Source: Patescibacteria group bacterium (GTDB lineage Bacteria > Patescibacteriota > JABMPQ01). Taken from it: DNA of 64,000 bases. The stretch covers positions 149,957 through 213,956 of the forward strand of contig JBGTBM010000007.1 of assembly GCA_041749335.1 (NCBI GenBank), read 5' to 3'. The number at the start of each line of letters is the position of its first letter. Position 1 is the stretch's first letter. This document shows positions 12,132 through 62,567 of this stretch, in pieces. Both the position numbers and the translations under genes were made by a program. A model generated the notes under the pieces. The model was not told where the DNA came from and made no database searches. It saw only the letters and a list, made by a program, of their open reading frames with translations.

Positions 12132-13244
12132 ATGGAACAAAATAAACAAACACAAGGAGTGGCAAGAGAAATTAATCGTCGTGATATTAAAAGCAGACCA
12201 AATAGAGTTTTATGGTTTTTTATAGTTCTAATTCTAATTGTGGGCTTAGGGGCGGCAGGCTATTATTTATACGGAAAAATTTTTAAGAATCAGGCAGAAA
12301 TTGATGATGGTTTTGCAGATAGTGTTCGATATATTGAAATTTCAGCGGAAAAAGCCAAAGAAATGTTAGATAGTAATAAAGATTTAATTATATTGGATAT
12401 TTCCAATAATTATATTAATGGGCATATTCCGACGGCGATAAATATCGAATTAAAAGATCTTGCGGAAAATTTAAGCGAACTTGATCAAAATGATGATATT
12501 TTAATATACGGAAGATTTTATATGAATAGCGTGGAAGCGGCAAAAATATTAACGGATAATAATTTCAATAAAGTTTATCGTTTGCGGGGGGAATTTGATG
12601 CTTGGGTTAGCGAGGGTTATGATATTGAAACCGGCGAGGGATCTGGCATGAAAAAAGATAGCGATAATGATGGAATTTCCGACAAGGAAGAGGAGGCCCT
12701 GGGTTCCGATCCGCATGATCCGGATACAGACAAGGATGGCTTGCTGGATGGCGATGAAATAAAATTAGGAACCGATATTACCAATCCGGATACAGACAGT
12801 GATGGCTTTTTAGATGGAGATGAAGTTGATGACGGATATGATCCACTTTCCAAGCCGGAAGATTTACAAAATAAAATCAGAGAATTAGAGGAAATTGATT
12901 TGGAAACGGTCAATATGTCTAATGTAGAGGGAACTGCCAGCAGGTATATGAGCAAAGGAAATTATTATTTAGAGGTTTCCGGCATTTTACCTAAACTGGA
13001 AGAAAAAAACAAATATATAGTTTTTTTGATAAATGATAATTCCGGTGAAAAAGTCAGAACAGGAGAATTAATATATGTGAAAGATATAAGCTCTGAAGAA
13101 GATGATGAAAATAATTATGCGCAGTACTCTTTAGAGTATCAAACTCATCTAGATTATTATGATTATTACTTAGTTGAATTAGATATTCAGCAAGAAATCG
13201 ACTCAGTTACTATAATGCGAGGAGAATTTCAAAGAAGTGAATAA
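12132..13244 (+). CDS. Membrane-anchored rhodanese-domain protein with thrombospondin type-3 (Ca-binding) repeats
   Basis: An N-terminal TM helix, a rhodanese fold ('ILIYGRFYMNSVEAAKIL...YRLRGEFDAWVSEGYD'), then three DxDxDGxxDxxE repeats ('DSDNDGISDKEE', 'DTDKDGLLDGDE', 'DTDSDGFLDGDE'). Confidence 0.65.
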   Translation: MEQNKQTQGVAREINRRDIKSRPNRVLWFFIVLILIVGLGAAGYYLYGKIFKNQAEIDDGFADSVRYIEISAEKAKEMLDSNKDLIILDISNNYINGHIPTAINIELKDLAENLSELDQNDDILIYGRFYMNSVEAAKILTDNNFNKVYRLRGEFDAWVSEGYDIETGEGSGMKKDSDNDGISDKEEEALGSDPHDPDTDKDGLLDGDEIKLGTDITNPDTDSDGFLDGDEVDDGYDPLSKPEDLQNKIRELEEIDLETVNMSNVEGTASRYMSKGNYYLEVSGILPKLEEKNKYIVFLINDNSGEKVRTGELIYVKDISSEEDDENNYAQYSLEYQTHLDYYDYYLVELDIQQEIDSVTIMRGEFQRSE

Positions 13245-29408: not shown

Positions 29409-29720
29409 ATGAAAAAAATAAATAAACTAACCAAGCAAGATGTTGAACATGTGGCTAAACTAGCGCGCATTAAAATATCCGAAACCGAAAAAGAAATATA
29501 TAGTGCGCAGCTAAGCTCAATCCTAGAGTATATCAATAAACTGAACGAAGTCGAAACTGATAAGATTTCAGCGGCAACTCATATGAGCGGATTAAAAAAT
29601 GTCATGAGGGCAGATAAAGCCGCGGAGTGTAATATACAAAAAGATTTAATTGAAGCCGCGCCTGAATACGAAAATAATATGATAAAAGTAAAAGCGGTTT
29701 TGAAAGGAGGAAAACAATGA
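29409..29720 (+). CDS. gatC: Asp/Glu-tRNA amidotransferase subunit C
   Basis: About 100 aa, 'VEHVAKLARIKISETEKE...', positioned immediately upstream of gatA. Confidence 0.8.
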   Translation: MKKINKLTKQDVEHVAKLARIKISETEKEIYSAQLSSILEYINKLNEVETDKISAATHMSGLKNVMRADKAAECNIQKDLIEAAPEYENNMIKVKAVLKGGKQ

Positions 29721-41337: not shown

Positions 41338-41352
41338 TTACAAAAATTAAAA

Positions 41353-41376
41353 AAGAGCTCTATAAGCTCTTTTTTG
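41353..41376 (+). terminator. Rho-independent terminator after the PMM/PGM gene
   Basis: A 7 bp stem AAGAGCT/AGCTCTT with loop CTATA, followed by a T6 run. Confidence 0.6.
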
Positions 41377-41394
41377 ATAGTGAATAATTAGTCT

Positions 41395-41423
41395 TGAAAA
41401 ATACCAAAAATTATGGTAAAATT
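41395..41423 (+). promoter_or_regulatory. Sigma70-like promoter (-35 TTGAAA, 17 nt spacer, TGgTAAAAT extended -10)
   Basis: Near-consensus hexamers about 28 nt upstream of the 41451 start. The leader 'CAAAAATAAAAATAAAAAATGAA' is shared with the 47384 paralog. Confidence 0.5.
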
Positions 41424-41450
41424 AAGTTGATACAAAAATAAAAATAAAAA

Positions 41451-42446
41451 ATGAAATTATCTATAAAATACGTATTAGGCGCTGTTATCGCGCTTTTTAT
41501 TATTTCTTTTTTGGGAATAAATCCTATTTTTGCTCTTGAAGTGAGCCCTATTCAGCCCGCCGAGACAATAAGTTATCAGGAGCCCGTAGGCGTTAATAGT
41601 TCGCTAAGTGCTACTTTACCGAGCTATTTTTTCCAGGGTATGCACGTAGGAACGCTTGATGGCAGCGGGGGAGTGTTATTTGCCAATGGCACTATTATTA
41701 ATGTAACGCGGACAAAAAAAGATAATAAACCTATCCCAATTACTATGGGAGATGATTTAAGAATAGATGGTGAAATTTGGCGGGGACCAAAAAAGGGAAC
41801 AGAGGATGGAATGCCTTTGAAAATATCCGATACTATGGTTCCTACTATAAATGATATCAACGATCTGGGTGATTCAACAAGAAAATGGAAAGATCTATAT
41901 TTATCAGGAACGATATTTGGTAATAATGCAATATTTAGTGGAGATATTGATTTTTCTGATGCCAATATAGGCGGTTTAAGTATATCAAATGCAGATACTT
42001 TAGATGGAATTGACTCTACCGGCTTTGCGCTTAATCCGCACGATCATGACAGCAGATATTTACAGTTAACCGGAGGAACTTTAACCGGACTAACTTCTGT
42101 GGATGCAACTTTAAGGGTTAAAAGCGGTGGTTATACATTGGGAGGCGTTTCTATTACTACAGACGGAGATATTATGGCTGCTGGAAATCTAACATTAGAT
42201 GAGAATATAAATGCGAATTCTTTAAATTTAACGGGAAATGTTGATAGTAAGGGAGGAGCAATATTAGGTACTGGACCAAATAATGTATTAATTACTGGAA
42301 GTGGCAATGCTTATTTTAATGGTAAAATAATTATTCCTAATGGACCTGCGATCCCCGTAGGGAGTTGCATTATTGGGGAAATATATTTAGAAACAACCAC
42401 TCCGCAAATTTATGGATGTGCTGCTTCAATATGGCAAGCCCTGTAG
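41451..42446 (+). CDS. Secreted hypothetical protein, paralog family A (copy 1)
   Basis: A signal peptide, then a conserved block shared with 47384..48457: 'FNGTI.NV', 'GDD.RIDG.IW.GP.KG', 'DLG.S...W..LYL.G..GNN'. The C-terminus has two Cys. Confidence 0.6.
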   Translation: MKLSIKYVLGAVIALFIISFLGINPIFALEVSPIQPAETISYQEPVGVNSSLSATLPSYFFQGMHVGTLDGSGGVLFANGTIINVTRTKKDNKPIPITMGDDLRIDGEIWRGPKKGTEDGMPLKISDTMVPTINDINDLGDSTRKWKDLYLSGTIFGNNAIFSGDIDFSDANIGGLSISNADTLDGIDSTGFALNPHDHDSRYLQLTGGTLTGLTSVDATLRVKSGGYTLGGVSITTDGDIMAAGNLTLDENINANSLNLTGNVDSKGGAILGTGPNNVLITGSGNAYFNGKIIIPNGPAIPVGSCIIGEIYLETTTPQIYGCAASIWQAL

Positions 42447-47206: not shown

Positions 47207-47298
47207 TATGATTATTACTAATTAAGTGTTGAATAGAATTTATCACTACTTATAGTTTTTGTCAATCTAACTGTATTTTTCATAATTTATAAAAAGGG

Positions 47299-47327
47299 TT
47301 GATTATTTTTTAAAAATATGTTACAAT
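47299..47327 (+). promoter_or_regulatory. Sigma70-like promoter (-35 TTGATT, 17 nt spacer, -10 TACAAT)
   Basis: About 55 nt upstream of 47384. Followed by the same A-rich leader motif as the copy-1 paralog. Confidence 0.5.
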
Positions 47328-47383
47328 TTAAATAAGAAATTGAAAGACTTTTTCTATAAAAAACAAAAATAAAAATAAAAAAT

Positions 47384-48457
47384 ATGAAGAAACTAATTAT
47401 GCTTTTTGGCGCGATGGCTCTGATTTTTAGCACATTATTTGTGCTAACAGCAGTAGCTTTGGCGTCAGATGCCGATTTATTGCAGCCGGCATCAACAGTC
47501 ACTTATAATGAGGATTTGAACGTGAATGGTACCGGAAGATTCAATTCCGTTTATATCGGATCCGAAGGAGTGGGGGGAGTAACTTTCTTTAATGGAACGA
47601 TCGTAAATGTGGGAGAATATGTGCCGGTTACTTTTGGCGATGATGTTCGTATTGATGGTCAGATCTGGGGCGGACCCAATAAGGGCAATGTTTCCGATCA
47701 GGCTCTAAAAATCGCCGATACTCTGCTTCCCGGGCTTACCAACGCCAATGATCTTGGATCTGACAGTTTAAAATGGAGAAATCTTTATTTGGCCGGCGTT
47801 TTATACGGCAATAATGTAAATTTGGATGGAACGTTAAGTGCTACGGATCTGCTTTATTCCGGTAATCTTTATGGCAACCATGCAAATTTAAATGGAACAT
47901 TGACAATGCAGCCTGCTGGAGATTCGCCGAAAACCCGCATAACTTTATCTAATCAATTAATAACACAAAATCAAGCCGAAAATAGCGCTTTCAAAGCGCA
48001 AGGTTTACGTTTTGAAAATTATGCTGAAAAATACGATATGAGCTTTGGAAAACAAGTGATTACGAATTTTGGTAATTCAGGCCAAGATATCGTTTTACAT
48101 GGCTTGCAGGGAATGAACGATAATCAGACAAATCTCTTATATATGGGATTGGTCAAGGGATACCCGGATTATGACTCAGTTTTATGGAGTGCTGATATAT
48201 CCGGCGAAGATAATGCCAGATTGGGTATTTTAGCGAATGATATTGATATCAAAGCAAGGTCAATCTACATGGAAGATTTGAAAACAATGCGTTTTGAAGG
48301 GGTTGATGTAAAAGATAATGGGGATACAAAATGCGAGGTTAAAATTGAGGGTGAATGGAAGGATGTTATGCCCGGTACTTTGTTGCGAGGGAATGATGGA
48401 ATTAATACCAAGTTGCGTTATTGTGAATCCAATAAGTGGGAAGATCTATATCCATAA
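47384..48457 (+). CDS. Secreted hypothetical protein, paralog family A (copy 2)
   Basis: Signal peptide 'VALA|SDAD', the same conserved N-terminal block as 41451..42446, and repeated 'GN..NL.GTL' beta-strand-like repeats. Confidence 0.6.
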   Translation: MKKLIMLFGAMALIFSTLFVLTAVALASDADLLQPASTVTYNEDLNVNGTGRFNSVYIGSEGVGGVTFFNGTIVNVGEYVPVTFGDDVRIDGQIWGGPNKGNVSDQALKIADTLLPGLTNANDLGSDSLKWRNLYLAGVLYGNNVNLDGTLSATDLLYSGNLYGNHANLNGTLTMQPAGDSPKTRITLSNQLITQNQAENSAFKAQGLRFENYAEKYDMSFGKQVITNFGNSGQDIVLHGLQGMNDNQTNLLYMGLVKGYPDYDSVLWSADISGEDNARLGILANDIDIKARSIYMEDLKTMRFEGVDVKDNGDTKCEVKIEGEWKDVMPGTLLRGNDGINTKLRYCESNKWEDLYP

Positions 48458-48484
48458 AAAAAATAATTTTAAAAAACAGGTCCA

Positions 48485-48512
48485 TCCGGGATCTGTTTTT
48501 TTATTGAGTTAA
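48485..48512. terminator. Bidirectional intrinsic terminator between paralog copy 2 and uvrC
   Basis: A 9 bp stem AACAGGTCC/GGATCTGTT, with an A-run upstream and a T7 run downstream. Confidence 0.55.
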
Positions 48513-58099: not shown

Positions 58100-58363
58100 A
58101 TGTTAGGATCTTTGAAAAAATATTTGGTTTTAAGATTTGGATTTGTTTTTATGGCAATTCATTATGGGGAAATTCGGGAAGTTGATTTATTTGTTAAGGC
58201 CCTGCGTGGTGTTTCCGGAGTGGACTTGATTTATTATCAGGAATACGCTGATCAAGTGATGGTTAAAATATTGGGAGATACCAATCGGGTAGAGCGGGCG
58301 ATGCGGGAATTGATTCCCAGATTTCGATTAGACATTTCTCGAAATGGCATTAAGGTTCACTGA
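58100..58363 (+). CDS. Hypothetical small protein (possibly a ferredoxin-like alpha/beta fold)
   Basis: An ATG with a good Shine-Dalgarno sequence (AAGGAG), 87 aa. Overlaps the next gene by ATGA, suggesting translational coupling. Confidence 0.45.
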   Translation: MLGSLKKYLVLRFGFVFMAIHYGEIREVDLFVKALRGVSGVDLIYYQEYADQVMVKILGDTNRVERAMRELIPRFRLDISRNGIKVH

Positions 58364-58770
58364 TGGACTTAGCCAGACTGAAATTAATTAATATTCCGGC
58401 CGATTGGATTCCCGGGCGCGACGCGTTTGTGAGATTAAGGATAAATCCGAAACAATCTGATTTCTCTGATGAAATATTGCCATATGCTGAAATTGCCGCT
58501 TCAATATTTGTTTGGCTAGCTAAGAAGAATAACGGATTTAAGCCGATTCCGTATCAGAATTTGTCTGAAATAAAATCGCCCTTAGTGCGTATTACCAGTC
58601 CGGAAGGCGATACTTTTGAAGCAACGCGCTTAGCGGCAGGAATAAAAATATTAATAGAGCTGGGCTGGGTGGAAAATGATGAAGAAAATAGGTTGTTTAT
58701 AGTCGATCAAGGCATTTTGAAAAATATTATTTTTTGTCACCAGGTTTTATTTTCATCTCCGTGCGCTTAA
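58363..58770 (+). CDS. Hypothetical protein
   Basis: 135 aa with no recognisable motifs. Its 3' end and terminator are duplicated 0.8 kb downstream. Confidence 0.45.
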   Translation: MDLARLKLINIPADWIPGRDAFVRLRINPKQSDFSDEILPYAEIAASIFVWLAKKNNGFKPIPYQNLSEIKSPLVRITSPEGDTFEATRLAAGIKILIELGWVENDEENRLFIVDQGILKNIIFCHQVLFSSPCA

Positions 58771-58862
58771 AAAATAAATCTCTTTTTAGGCGAAGATATT
58801 TTACTAAATTCCCTCGAAGTGAATTATGTCACATATCGAGGGTTTTTTAATTAATTTAAATT
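58746..58862 (+). repeat. Direct repeat copy 1 (gene 3' end + terminator + AT-rich tail)
   Basis: About 80-85% identical to 59587..59694, ending in an identical 'CGAGGG(A)TTTTTAATTAATTTAAATTTT'. Confidence 0.7.
58811..58848 (+). terminator. Rho-independent terminator (CCCTCG...CGAGGG + T6)
   Basis: A 6 bp GC-rich stem with an 18 nt loop that itself has GTGA/TCAC pairing, followed by TTTTTT. Confidence 0.6.
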
Positions 58863-58981
58863 TTTTATATTAAAGAGAAAAAGGAGAGAAGGAGTATTTT
58901 ATTGATAAACTTGACAAAAATTATAAATATGATTAAATGAATAGTTCTCAACATATGAGCCGTGAAGGCTAAGGAGGAACA

Positions 58982-59431
58982 ATGTATAAGAACTGGAAGG
59001 CAATTTGTGAAGTTAAGGATAATCATATGATGTGGGCGCTGGCGCTCCTTGATCTGACATCCGATCTTGGTCGAAGGTTCGTGGAGCAACTTCCGGAGTT
59101 TTTCTCACAGGAAGAGACTGCCGGACCTTATCCGCTGTCACTTATGCGGGAAGCAGCGCAGGAAAATGGAAGAAAACAGGGCACTGACAATGGGGCAAAT
59201 TACATTGTCTCTCACGATGGCGTACCCGGCCACATTCCTGTTAAGATGTTTGACAAGTTTGGCAAGAATGTTGCTTCTCTCAACGGACCAAAGCTGCCTG
59301 ACGAGATCAGTCCGGATGCTCGCGCGGGTGAAACAGTTACCTGGGAGGGTAAACAGTTCGTTGTATTGGAAAACAACGATAGCTGTGAAGAGCTAGCGAT
59401 TGCGCCGGCAGAACTGATCTTTGTTGATTGA
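58982..59431 (+). CDS. Hypothetical protein encoded by a GC-enriched cassette
   Basis: A strong ribosome-binding site (AAGGAGG, 6 nt spacer) and a TTGACA -35-like hexamer upstream. GC is around 48% against a roughly 33% background. No recognisable family. Confidence 0.55.
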   Translation: MYKNWKAICEVKDNHMMWALALLDLTSDLGRRFVEQLPEFFSQEETAGPYPLSLMREAAQENGRKQGTDNGANYIVSHDGVPGHIPVKMFDKFGKNVASLNGPKLPDEISPDARAGETVTWEGKQFVVLENNDSCEELAIAPAELIFVD

Positions 59432-62006: not shown

Positions 62007-62567
62007 TTAGTTTATATTTGTCAAATGATTCCTGTCTTGTTCTGATGTCCATTTGAAAGGATTATTTTGTACGTATTTACGAATATTAAATAATGATTTT
62101 TCATTGCGAATAATATGGTCATAAAAAGATTTCTGCCAGACAAATTCATCATTATTTTTTTCACGAAAATATTTAGTAACGCCTATTTTGAAACCGCGGA
62201 TAATTGATGATAGCGATTTTGATAATTTTGTTTGCCATGGAAGGGAACAAAAATTTTTGTTCCCTTCATCATTATTTTTAATTATCACGATTCCGTGAAT
62301 ATGGTTTGGCATAATTATAAATTCATCCAATATCACGTTTGGGAAATGATCCGGAATTTCCCGCCAGCATTTTTTTGTGATTTTCCCATATTCATTCAAC
62401 GTCAATTCTCCGTTTTTTATTTCACCGAAAAATTCCTGCCGATTTTTGGTACAAATGGTGACAAAATAATACCCATTTTGGGAATAATCATATCCTTTCA
62501 ACCTGTTTAATTTGCGATCGGGCAAATTTTGCCCTCTTTTACCCGATTTCTTTATTATATTCTTCAA
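62007..62567 (-). mobile_element. IS200/IS605-family Y1 (HUH) transposase, RAYT/TnpA_REP-like
   Basis: 'YFVTICTKNRQ' (like the IS200 'Y..VW.PKYR' block), the HUH motif 'MPNHIHGIVII', and the catalytic Tyr context 'WQKSFYDHIIRNE' typical of REP-associated tyrosine transposases. Confidence 0.7.

What the first reader, a model, noticed from the sequence alone, without database searches (positions are those of the whole stretch)
41395..42446. Paralogous secreted protein family with cloned-looking promoters and leader (copy 1)
41451-42446 and 47384-48457 share a conserved N-terminal module ('FNGTI.NV..', 'GDD.RIDG.IW.GP.KG', 'LKI.DT', 'NDLG.S...W..LYL.G..GNN'), then diverge into repeat-rich beta-strand-like C-terminal parts.

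Both have signal peptides, near-consensus sigma70 promoters, the same A-rich leader 'CAAAAATAAAAATAAAAAAT(A)TGAA', and strong terminators. These are the signatures of highly expressed surface or fibre proteins (adhesin, S-layer, or pilus-associated).

They are embedded separately among housekeeping genes.
Basis: seen in the sequence. Interest (0 to 1): 0.6.

Follow-up and report, generated by a model that had tools for sequence, protein, structure and literature searches.

The report
Secreted phage-fibre-like proteins of Patescibacteria
Two separately transcribed genes in this ultrasmall (CPR/Patescibacteria) bacterium encode exported proteins from a large, unnamed family. The family joins a conserved N-terminal module, ending in a phage-tail-fibre-type repeat, to rapidly exchanged C-terminal tips, which makes these proteins good but untested candidates for cell-surface fibres that recognise host cells.

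Summary
ORFs 41451-42446 and 47384-48457 are paralogs: 37% identity over about 180 N-terminal residues, E=3e-34. Both have Sec-type signal peptides and conserved promoters with an extended -10 element. Both carry an identical 20-nt A-rich leader.

Two sub-claims weaken. Copy 1 has no terminator of its own. The A-rich leader without a Shine-Dalgarno (SD) site is this genome's general style, since only about 2 of 58 genes have a real SD.

The proteins belong to an unannotated family with no Pfam, NCBIfam or PDB match. It has 2378 cluster representatives. Members with the full N-terminal module come almost only from Patescibacteria genomes, often in 4-8 copies each.

The last third of the N-module is one copy of a ~35-aa repeat. 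That repeat is iterated 8-24 times in giant fibre proteins and matches the Pfam endosialidase stalk domain and phage fibre proteins. Some relatives end in the Peptidase_S74 trimer chaperone or carry YadA head repeats.

At syntenic loci the housekeeping neighbours are 70-98% identical, but the C-terminal halves are only 22-48% identical.

Best reading: exported, probably trimeric, surface fibres with a constant base and variable binding tips. Trimer formation, surface retention, adhesion and expression level are all inferred.

The parts
41349..41375 (+). Intrinsic terminator hairpin of the upstream pgm/pmm gene. It insulates copy 1 as its own transcription unit and is not a terminator of copy 1.
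   Evidence: Fold gives dG -15 kcal/mol, z -4.7. It was also found by the terminator scan. It is conserved in ortholog locus L084.
41394..41422 (+). Copy 1 promoter: -35 TTGAAA, 17-nt spacer, extended -10 TGgTAAAAT.
   Evidence: Scan match 10/12 with TG extension. The TTGAAA and TGGTA.AAT elements are conserved in 4 orthologous loci (alignment A4).
41433..41452 (+). A-rich leader 20-mer without a Shine-Dalgarno site, CAAAAATAAAAATAAAAAAT. It runs into the ATG.
   Evidence: Exact match occurs only at 41433 and 47364 in the window. A content of -20..-1 is 16/20, tied for highest among 58 genes.
41451..42446 (+). Copy 1 CDS (331 aa).
   Evidence: ORF list. An identical protein, P0001, is in the public collection.
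41451..41534 (+). Copy 1 Sec-type signal peptide (aa 1-28, predicted cleavage IFA|LE).
   Evidence: n/h/c-region heuristic. AF2 models a helix at residues 3-23.
41550..41909 (+). Copy 1 conserved N-terminal module (aa 34-153). Motifs: QPAE..Y.E, GGVLFANGTIINV, GDDLRIDGEIWRGPKKG.
   Evidence: Alignments A2/A3 show 22 invariant columns. The profile finds 2378 cluster representatives. AF2 gives pLDDT 68-90 but an extended chain.
41814..41909 (+). Copy 1 phage-fibre-type repeat unit (aa 122-153, PLKISDTMVPTINDINDLGDSTRKWKDLYLSG).
   Evidence: Profile positions ~75-113 recur 8-24 times in giant proteins. Those proteins match PF12219 above its cut-off. PHROG tail spike/fibre families are also hit. 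PDB hits 8i4m_e and 6eu4 are marginal.
41910..42365 (+). Copy 1 variable middle region (aa 154-305). It includes NADTLDGIDSTGF..H.H..YLQLTGGTLTG and irregular Gly/Asn/Thr-rich beta-type segments.
   Evidence: Only P0002 and P0003 share it fully. C-part identity to syntenic orthologs is 22-48%. AF2 pLDDT is below 50.
42366..42443 (+). Copy 1 C-terminal Cys-loop tip (aa 306-331, C..GEIYLE.....IYGC....W..L). It holds the only two Cys of the mature protein.
   Evidence: The motif is present in 27 of 149 family-type proteins, mostly with exactly 2 Cys. AF2 models beta-hairpins at pLDDT ~80.
47299..47327 (+). Copy 2 promoter: -35 TTGATT, 17-nt spacer, extended -10 TGtTACAAT.
   Evidence: Scan match 9/12 with TG extension. 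Conserved in 3 orthologous loci (A5).
47364..47383 (+). Copy 2 A-rich leader 20-mer, identical to that of copy 1 and ending just before the ATG.
   Evidence: The core ATAAAAAACAAAAATAAAA is invariant in 3 orthologs.
47384..48457 (+). Copy 2 CDS (357 aa): signal peptide aa 1-27 (ALA|SD), N-module aa 33-138, a ~19-aa duplication at aa 139-173, a distinct C-terminal domain, and a Cys-loop tip at aa 317-357.
48471..48502 (.). Hairpin terminator lying between copy 2 and the convergent uvrC gene; it could serve both.
   Evidence: Fold gives dG -18.3 kcal/mol, z -5.2.

Best explanation
Both genes encode Sec-exported members of a Patescibacteria-wide family of modular, phage-fibre-like surface proteins.

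Proposed mechanism:
1. Each gene is transcribed on its own from a conserved sigma-70 promoter with an extended -10 element.
2. It is translated from an SD-less, A-rich leader, which is the normal initiation mode in this genome.
3. The signal peptide directs export and is probably cleaved after the A-x-A-like site.
4. The mature chains are inferred to assemble into an intertwined homotrimer. The conserved N-terminal ~120-residue module forms the constant base. Its last ~32 residues form one tail-fibre/endosialidase-stalk-type repeat.
5. This base would hold the fibre on a conserved component of the cell envelope.
6. The variable C-terminal part points outward and binds ligands. In both window copies it ends in a two-cysteine loop.
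7. Paralogs and orthologs keep the base and exchange the tip, giving each lineage a repertoire of binding specificities. In an obligately host-associated CPR bacterium these would most plausibly target host-cell surfaces.

Shown here: paralogy, family distribution, signal-peptide-like N-termini, homology of the repeat to phage fibre repeats, trimer-specific modules in relatives, tip replacement at syntenic loci, and promoter conservation.

Inferred: cleavage, trimer formation, surface retention, orientation, adhesion, and high expression.
For: - Paralogy is strong: E=3e-34.
- The organism is a Patescibacteria/Parcubacteria-group bacterium. The nearest named relatives of its RNase J all carry that label.
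- The family profile finds 2378 cluster representatives, 837 of them at E<=1e-10.
- 99 genomic relatives sit almost entirely in Patescibacteria MAGs, with 4-8 copies in some and 21 extra tandem copies.
- 76 of 77 complete ORFs have signal-peptide-like N-termini, with the module 20-60 residues from the start.
- The module's last third recurs 8-24 times in proteins up to 5302 aa.
- Those proteins match Pfam End_tail_spike above its gathering score (P0018 2e-23, P0021 2e-11).
- P0021 also matches phage proteins annotated as fibre or tail fibre, E 2e-23 to 1e-9.
- Four family members match the PHROG tail spike/fibre families phrog_1171 and phrog_7121 at E 4e-5 to 7e-3, and these are the same motif.
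- Relatives with the same N-module end in the Peptidase_S74 intramolecular chaperone (P0025, P0053) or contain YadA head repeats (P0083). Both are modules of obligate trimers (PMC4690869, PMC8326128 for S74).
- AF2 with 98 sequences gives a confident (pLDDT 68-90) but secondary-structure-free, extended N-module.
- At syntenic loci in three related genomes the neighbours are 70-98% identical. The N-parts are 55-92% identical and the C-parts 22-48%.
- Each mature protein has exactly 2 Cys, both in the terminal loop, and is acidic and Gly/Asn/Thr-rich.
- No relative of the N-module was found in 2.9 million viral contigs, and the gene context is housekeeping. So these are cellular genes, not prophage genes.
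Against: - Neither window protein matches PF12219, PHROG tail families or any PDB chain on its own. The link to fibre repeats is transitive and rests on one ~32-residue motif.
- No oligomer could be modelled.
- No known anchoring device is present: no SLH domain, no LPXTG, no lipobox, no C-terminal TM segment. Surface retention is therefore unexplained, and the proteins could simply be released.
- No conserved partner gene was found next to family members.
- No expression, localisation or binding data exist.
- The window proteins lack the S74 chaperone found in some relatives.
Confidence: 0.55

Rival explanations
1. They are S-layer or other structural envelope proteins. The conserved N-module anchors the protein to the wall. 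The variable C-terminal domain forms or decorates a surface array, and its variation serves antigenic or phage evasion rather than host adhesion.
For: - The layout (strong conserved promoters, signal peptide, acidic Gly/Asn/Thr-rich composition, conserved N-terminus, variable C-terminus, several paralogs) resembles variable S-layer families (own knowledge, e.g. Campylobacter fetus Sap proteins).
- Envelope-glycan genes (Wzy_C, Wzt ABC, PMT_2) are neighbours in a minority of loci.
Against: - No SLH or other known S-layer anchoring domain is detected.
- The mature size of ~31-35 kDa is small for an S-layer protein.
- The only detectable homology is to fibre repeats and trimer modules.
- AF2 predicts an extended chain, not a compact lattice domain, for the N-module.
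Confidence: 0.15
2. They are released, soluble secreted proteins rather than cell-attached fibres. Examples would be ligand-binding scavengers, phage-receptor decoys, or carriers that target other cells.
For: - A signal peptide with a plausible SPase I site is present, and no recognisable retention signal exists.
- Many family members are very short (170-225 aa).
Against: - A strongly conserved N-terminal module across thousands of proteins argues for a conserved interaction partner.
- No enzymatic or toxin domain was found in 16 members or in the sampled relatives.
Confidence: 0.12
3. They are accessory or tip proteins of type IV pili or another surface filament, docked through the conserved N-module.
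For: - Type IV pili are the known attachment organelles of cultivated Patescibacteria (PMC12206443, PMC11880426).
- A PilB-type T2SSE ATPase is a neighbour in 6 of 79 loci.
Against: - There is no class III (prepilin) signal sequence.
- There are no pilus genes near either window copy.
- The neighbour association is weak (6 of 79).
Confidence: 0.08
4. They are remnants of prophage tail-fibre genes with no cellular role.
For: The repeat motif is shared with phage fibre and tailspike proteins.
Against: - Both genes are intact, with signal peptides that virion proteins lack.
- They hold conserved syntenic positions between housekeeping genes in four genomes, with conserved promoters.
- No phage genes are nearby.
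- The N-module is absent from viral contigs, and copy 1 has no match in the annotated phage genome records.
Confidence: 0.03

Closest known systems
Phage tail-fibre / tailspike stalk repeats (Pfam PF12219 End_tail_spike, as in coliphage K1F endosialidase; phage T5 pb1; cyanophage P-SCSP1u fibre gp28)
   Same: - They share the ~32-35-residue motif (h-x-P-x-x-x-N-x-x-D/N-L-G-x-x-x-x-R/K-W-x-x-h-Y).
- They share a modular layout with a constant N-terminus and a variable C-terminal binding end.
- Some relatives carry the Peptidase_S74 C-terminal chaperone.
   Different: - The genes are cellular, with Sec signal peptides.
- The first two-thirds of the N-module (QPA..Y.E, GGVTFFNGT, GDD.RIDG.IWRG) has no phage, Pfam or PDB counterpart.
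- The window proteins have a single repeat, no catalytic domain and no S74 domain.
Trimeric autotransporter adhesins (YadA family)
   Same: - Both are exported fibrous adhesin-type proteins with exchangeable head domains.
- One relative (P0083) contains YadA head repeats.
   Different: - There is no C-terminal beta-barrel anchor.
- The polarity is opposite: here the conserved end is N-terminal.
- No outer membrane is expected for these organisms, because Patescibacteria are generally described as monoderm (own knowledge).
Variable S-layer protein families with a conserved N-terminal anchor (e.g. Campylobacter fetus Sap; own knowledge)
   Same: Both have a conserved N-terminal part, variable C-terminal part, multiple paralogs and strong expression signals.
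   Different: - Each copy here has its own promoter.
- Export is Sec-dependent.
- The proteins are small.
- The only detectable homology is to fibre repeats, not lattice domains.
SD-independent, A-rich translation initiation as described for Bacteroidia (PMC6847099, PMC7797042)
   Same: - Genes lack SD sequences and have A-rich upstream regions.
- The two paralogs sit at the A-rich extreme, 16/20 A.
   Different: - The phylum is different.
- No ribosome or 16S data are available here, so whether the mechanism is the same is unknown.

Membership tests
Phage tail-fibre / endosialidase-stalk repeat (Pfam PF12219 End_tail_spike) | Sequence match to the family model at or above its gathering score | tested here: not met
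   - Neither window protein matches at E<=1.
- Four family members match weakly, best 3.5e-5.
- Repeat-type relatives found by the N-module profile match above the cut-off: P0018 83.5 bits, P0021 44.6 bits, against a cut-off of 25.
- Homology is therefore transitive, for one ~32-aa unit only.
Phage tail-fibre / endosialidase-stalk repeat (Pfam PF12219 End_tail_spike) | Intertwined homotrimeric triple-beta-helix structure | not testable with these tools
   Only monomer AF2 was available. The N-module comes out confident but extended with no secondary structure. This is compatible with the feature but is not proof. Fold searches were not significant.
Phage tail-fibre / endosialidase-stalk repeat (Pfam PF12219 End_tail_spike) | C-terminal Peptidase_S74 intramolecular chaperone | tested here: not met
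   It is absent from both window proteins. It is present in relatives P0025 and P0053, which share the N-module.
Phage tail-fibre / endosialidase-stalk repeat (Pfam PF12219 End_tail_spike) | Encoded in a phage or prophage as a virion component | tested here: not met
   - Synteny among housekeeping genes is conserved in four genomes.
- No relative of the N-module in IMG/VR, and no match to copy 1 in the annotated phage genome records.
- A signal peptide is present.
Sec-exported proteins with a type I signal peptide | Positively charged n-region, hydrophobic h-region, small residues at -3/-1 | tested here: met
   - The predicted signal peptides are MKLSIK..IFA|LE and MKK..ALA|SD.
- The 12-residue Kyte-Doolittle maxima are 3.0 and 2.75.
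- 76 of 77 family ORFs show the same features.
- This is a heuristic only. SignalP was not run and cleavage is not shown.
Trimeric autotransporter adhesins (YadA) | C-terminal YadA anchor beta-barrel | tested here: not met
   No YadA_anchor or other Pfam match in either protein or in 16 members. The C-termini are short Cys-loops.
SLH-anchored S-layer proteins | SLH (or comparable known wall-binding) domain | tested here: not met
   No Pfam or NCBIfam match.
Sortase-anchored surface proteins | C-terminal LPXTG-type motif, hydrophobic segment and charged tail | tested here: not met
   The proteins end in ...GCAASIWQAL and ...CESNKWEDLYP.
Type IV pilins / pseudopilins | Class III signal peptide (G|F/M-T-L-x-E) with N-terminal hydrophobic helix retained | tested here: not met
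   The N-termini are classical Sec type, and no G-F-T-L-I-E motif is present.
DGR (diversity-generating retroelement) variable proteins | Template/variable repeat pair near a reverse transcriptase | tested here: not met

The most novel reading that the evidence does not exclude
Patescibacteria possess a phylum-wide, so far unnamed class of cell-encoded, Sec-exported trimeric fibres. In this reading they work as the cellular counterpart of phage receptor-binding proteins. A previously undescribed N-terminal docking domain is fused to one tail-fibre repeat. C-terminal tips are swapped like cassettes. The tips would determine which host cells an episymbiont recognises and attaches to.
Probability: 0.35. 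Interest if true: 0.75.

Novelty: new variant of a known kind. Interest (0 to 1): 0.5.

Why it matters
How ultrasmall episymbiotic Patescibacteria identify and bind their hosts is largely unknown beyond type IV pili, as the abstract of PMC12206443 states.

This family has the properties expected of host-range determinants:
- It is widespread and multi-copy.
- Its members are exported.
- It is fibre-like, with a constant base and fast-changing tips.

That gives concrete, testable candidates:
- Tips could be expressed and used to pull down host cells.
- Family repertoires could be correlated with host range.
- Fibres could be looked for by cryo-ET.

The N-terminal domain is also unmodelled in Pfam and NCBIfam, so a family definition would annotate thousands of 'hypothetical proteins'.

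Tried and rejected
- Direct annotation failed. Pfam, NCBIfam and PHROGs gave no significant hit for either window protein.
- PDB sequence searches gave little. Profiles A2 and A3 produced only marginal motif hits, E 0.08-0.25.
- The first AF2 run, with a 16-sequence alignment, was useless (pLDDT 42).
- The afdb50 library was unavailable.
- A profile of the C-terminal Cys-loop motif hit only antibodies in the PDB, which is spurious.
- A known RNA element in the leaders was rejected. Rfam finds only two tRNAs in the window.
- A DGR target was rejected, because the window holds no template/variable repeat pair.
- A prophage origin was rejected on synteny, the signal peptide and absence from viral collections.
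- A conserved partner gene was sought by clustering neighbours in 79 loci. None was found. There were only minority associations with NHL/FG-GAP proteins, Wzy_C, Wzt and PilB.
- The idea that the identical leader is a relic of the duplication is unlikely. The coding regions share no detectable nucleotide similarity, and copy 1 leaders differ among orthologs. Convergence on a simple (A5-6 N)n pattern under selection fits better, but gene conversion cannot be excluded.
- Literature searches found no description of this family.
Full report
**1. What is in the sequence**

Two intact + strand ORFs lie at 41451-42446 (331 aa, copy 1) and 47384-48457 (357 aa, copy 2). BLASTP between them gives E=3e-34 with 37% identity over the first ~180 residues. 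Nothing is alignable beyond that. tblastn finds no third copy in the 64-kb window.

The shared strings are F.NGTI.NV, GDD.RIDG.IW.GP.KG, LKI.DT and NDLG....KW..LYL.G...GNN.

Both N-termini look like classical Sec signal peptides. They have Lys-rich starts, 12-residue hydrophobic cores and small-x-small sites (IFA|LE and ALA|SD).

Each mature protein is acidic and rich in Gly, Asn and Thr. Each has exactly two cysteines, both in a C-terminal loop (C..G.IY.......YGC....W..L). The two copies share this loop although their middle regions differ.

**2. Expression signals**

- Copy 1 is preceded by TTGAAA-17-TAAAAT, and copy 2 by TTGATT-17-TACAAT. Both have a TG extension.
- In this 35% GC sequence such matches are as common as in shuffles (33 found vs 30 expected). 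The scan alone therefore proves nothing.
- Both promoters are, however, conserved in sequence and position in three to four orthologous loci from other metagenomes, while the surrounding spacer DNA diverges.
- The 20-mer CAAAAATAAAAATAAAAAAT occurs exactly twice in the window, directly upstream of the two start codons. Its register differs by 2 nt between them.
- This genome almost never uses Shine-Dalgarno sequences: about 2 of 58 genes have a real one. Upstream regions are generally A-rich, with a mean of 10.4 A in 20 nt. The two paralogs share the top value of 16/20 with four other genes.
- The leader is therefore the extreme of a genome-wide style. It resembles the SD-independent initiation described for Bacteroidia (PMC6847099, PMC7797042). 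It is not a private regulatory element, and Rfam finds nothing there.
- The coding sequences share no detectable nucleotide similarity, and copy 1 leaders vary among orthologs. The exact identity is thus more likely convergence on a simple (A5-6 N)n pattern than a relic of the duplication. The copy 2 leader core is invariant in three genomes.
- Terminators: copy 2 is followed by a strong hairpin that lies between it and the convergent uvrC (48471-48502, dG -18 kcal/mol, z -5.2).
- Copy 1 has no terminator. Its stop codon ends two bases before the end of the convergent trpS ORF. The strong hairpin at 41349-41375 is the terminator of the upstream pgm gene.

**3. Organism and context**

The window's RNase J has as nearest named relatives only Patescibacteria / Parcubacteria-group proteins, at 60-71% identity. 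The gene order is pgm | copy 1 | trpS - rnj - SBP_bac_5 - secG | copy 2 | uvrC - rpoB. This order recurs in three related metagenomic genomes. Both copies are therefore old, stably placed cellular genes, not prophage cargo.

**4. The family**

- A single-sequence search found 15 unannotated homologs.
- A profile of the mature N-terminal module (A3) found 2378 cluster representatives at E<=1e-3 and 837 at E<=1e-10 among 1.84 billion representatives.
- A pattern-plus-tblastn scan of 185,579 species genomes found 99 relatives. Almost all lie in MAGs labelled Patescibacteria, Parcubacteria, Kerfeldbacteria, WWE3 or Saccharibacteria. Individual genomes hold 4-8 copies.
- A few MAGs are labelled Gammaproteobacteria or Pirellulales. 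I did not verify those labels.
- Clustering of neighbours showed 21 further tandem copies.
- 76 of 77 complete ORFs have signal-peptide-like N-termini, with the module starting 20-60 residues in.
- The C-termini fall into recurrent but unrelated classes, for example ...LDCIELKK...EPNVEIY.VWFEYTA.Q...VNYTYTEPY...VSWQAIGY and the Cys-loop class.
- No Pfam, NCBIfam or PDB entry covers the module. Every source name is 'hypothetical protein'.

**5. Link to phage fibres**

The profile search revealed a second architecture. Proteins of up to 5302 aa repeat profile positions ~75-113 between 8 and 24 times. This is the segment PLKISDTMVPTINDINDLGDSTRKWKDLYLSG of copy 1.

- These repeat proteins match Pfam PF12219, the endosialidase tail-spike stalk, above its gathering score: P0018 at 2e-23 and P0021 at 2e-11.
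- P0021 matches cyanophage and roseophage proteins annotated as fibre, tail fibre or YadA-domain structural protein, at E 2e-23 to 1e-9.
- Family members with two copies of the unit hit PHROG tail spike and tail fibre families.
- The A3 profile aligns marginally to the cyanophage P-SCSP1u fibre (8i4m_e, E 0.08) and a tailspike (6eu4, E 0.23) at exactly this motif.
- Relatives with the same N-module end in the Peptidase_S74 intramolecular chaperone (P0025, P0053) or contain YadA head repeats (P0083). S74 is a trimer-dependent folding module that sits behind triple-beta-helix stalks (PMC4690869, PMC8326128).
- The first two-thirds of the module (QPA..Y.E, GGVTFFNGT, GDD.RIDG.IWRG) has no counterpart in 2.9 million viral contigs searched with the derived patterns, and copy 1 as a whole has no match in the annotated phage genome records.

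**6. Structure**

- With 16 sequences AF2 failed (pLDDT 42).
- With 98 sequences the N-module reached pLDDT 68-90, but as an extended chain with almost no DSSP secondary structure. The C-terminal 30 residues formed confident hairpins, and the middle stayed below 50.
- A confident yet unstructured single chain is what one expects from one strand of an intertwined fibre. That is an inference, because no multimer prediction was possible.
- Fold searches were not significant.

**7. Evolutionary pattern**

I compared the window with three syntenic genomes.

| Region | Identity |
|---|---|
| Neighbouring housekeeping proteins | 70-98% |
| N-parts of the two fibre genes | 55-92% |
| C-parts of the two fibre genes | 22-48% |

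The C-parts include outright domain replacement, as the alignment shows. No template/variable repeat pair of the DGR type is present in the window.

**8. Interpretation**

The best-supported reading is a cellular, Sec-exported, probably trimeric fibre with a constant N-terminal base and exchangeable C-terminal binding tips. This is the same design logic as phage receptor-binding proteins.

In an obligately host-associated phylum the obvious role is recognition of, or attachment to, host cells. Several things remain inferred:
- trimerisation;
- retention on the surface, since no known anchor motif is present;
- orientation;
- ligand binding;
- high expression.

Rivals, in order of plausibility:
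1. an S-layer-type envelope protein;
2. a released soluble binder;
3. a pilus-associated protein;
4. a prophage remnant, which is largely excluded.

**9. Novelty**

Fibrous trimeric adhesins and tail-fibre repeats are well known. The new elements are these:
- the N-terminal domain is unmodelled;
- it is fused to a single fibre repeat behind a signal peptide;
- the family is restricted to Patescibacteria and expanded there.

I rate it a new variant of a known kind, of moderate interest. It offers testable candidates for host-range determinants of CPR bacteria, but nothing functional has been shown.

Noticed in passing
whole window (e.g. upstream of 58 ORFs listed): The genome is almost free of Shine-Dalgarno sequences. 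Only about 2 of 58 start codons have a canonical AGGAGG-type site: gatA at 29717, where the site lies inside gatC, and the unknown ORF at 58982. Upstream regions are A/T-rich instead, as in Bacteroidia.
   Followed up: partly
window 58363-59431: Two small ORFs of 135 and 149 aa have no Pfam match. The second has one of the only strong SD sequences in the window (TAAGGAGGAACAatg). They may be foreign or specially regulated genes.
   Followed up: partly
   Followed up: partly
window 47237-47265 (- strand) and conserved block 47225-47250: The divergent secG promoter (TTGACA-17-TAAATT with a TG extension) and the adjacent sequence AAGTGTTGAATAGAATTTATCAC are nearly invariant in three genomes. Their conservation is stronger than that of the rest of the intergenic region.
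   Followed up: partly
L001 9262-11028: In one related genome a PMT_2 (ArnT/mannosyltransferase-like) glycosyltransferase is inserted between the copy 1 ortholog and trpS. In other genomes Wzy_C (9 loci) and Wzt ABC transporter (8 loci) genes neighbour family members. This hints at a link with envelope glycans or glycosylation.
   Followed up: partly
L023, L031, L034, L037, L040, L043, L049, L065, L066, L073, L074, L078: Family members occur in MAGs labelled 'uncultured Gammaproteobacteria' and 'Pirellulales'. These are contigs of ~40-51% GC, many of them short (3-10 kb) though two are 59-87 kb. This is either mis-binning or mislabelling of Patescibacteria contigs, or a real occurrence outside the phylum.
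   Followed up: no
window 62007-62567 (- strand): An IS200/Y1 transposase-like ORF (186 aa, TTG start) has one of the most A-rich leaders in the window.
   Followed up: no
window 12132-13244: A protein combines a rhodanese domain with bacterial TSP3 (thrombospondin type 3) calcium-binding repeats. It is another likely exported or surface protein and also has a 16/20 A leader.
   Followed up: no
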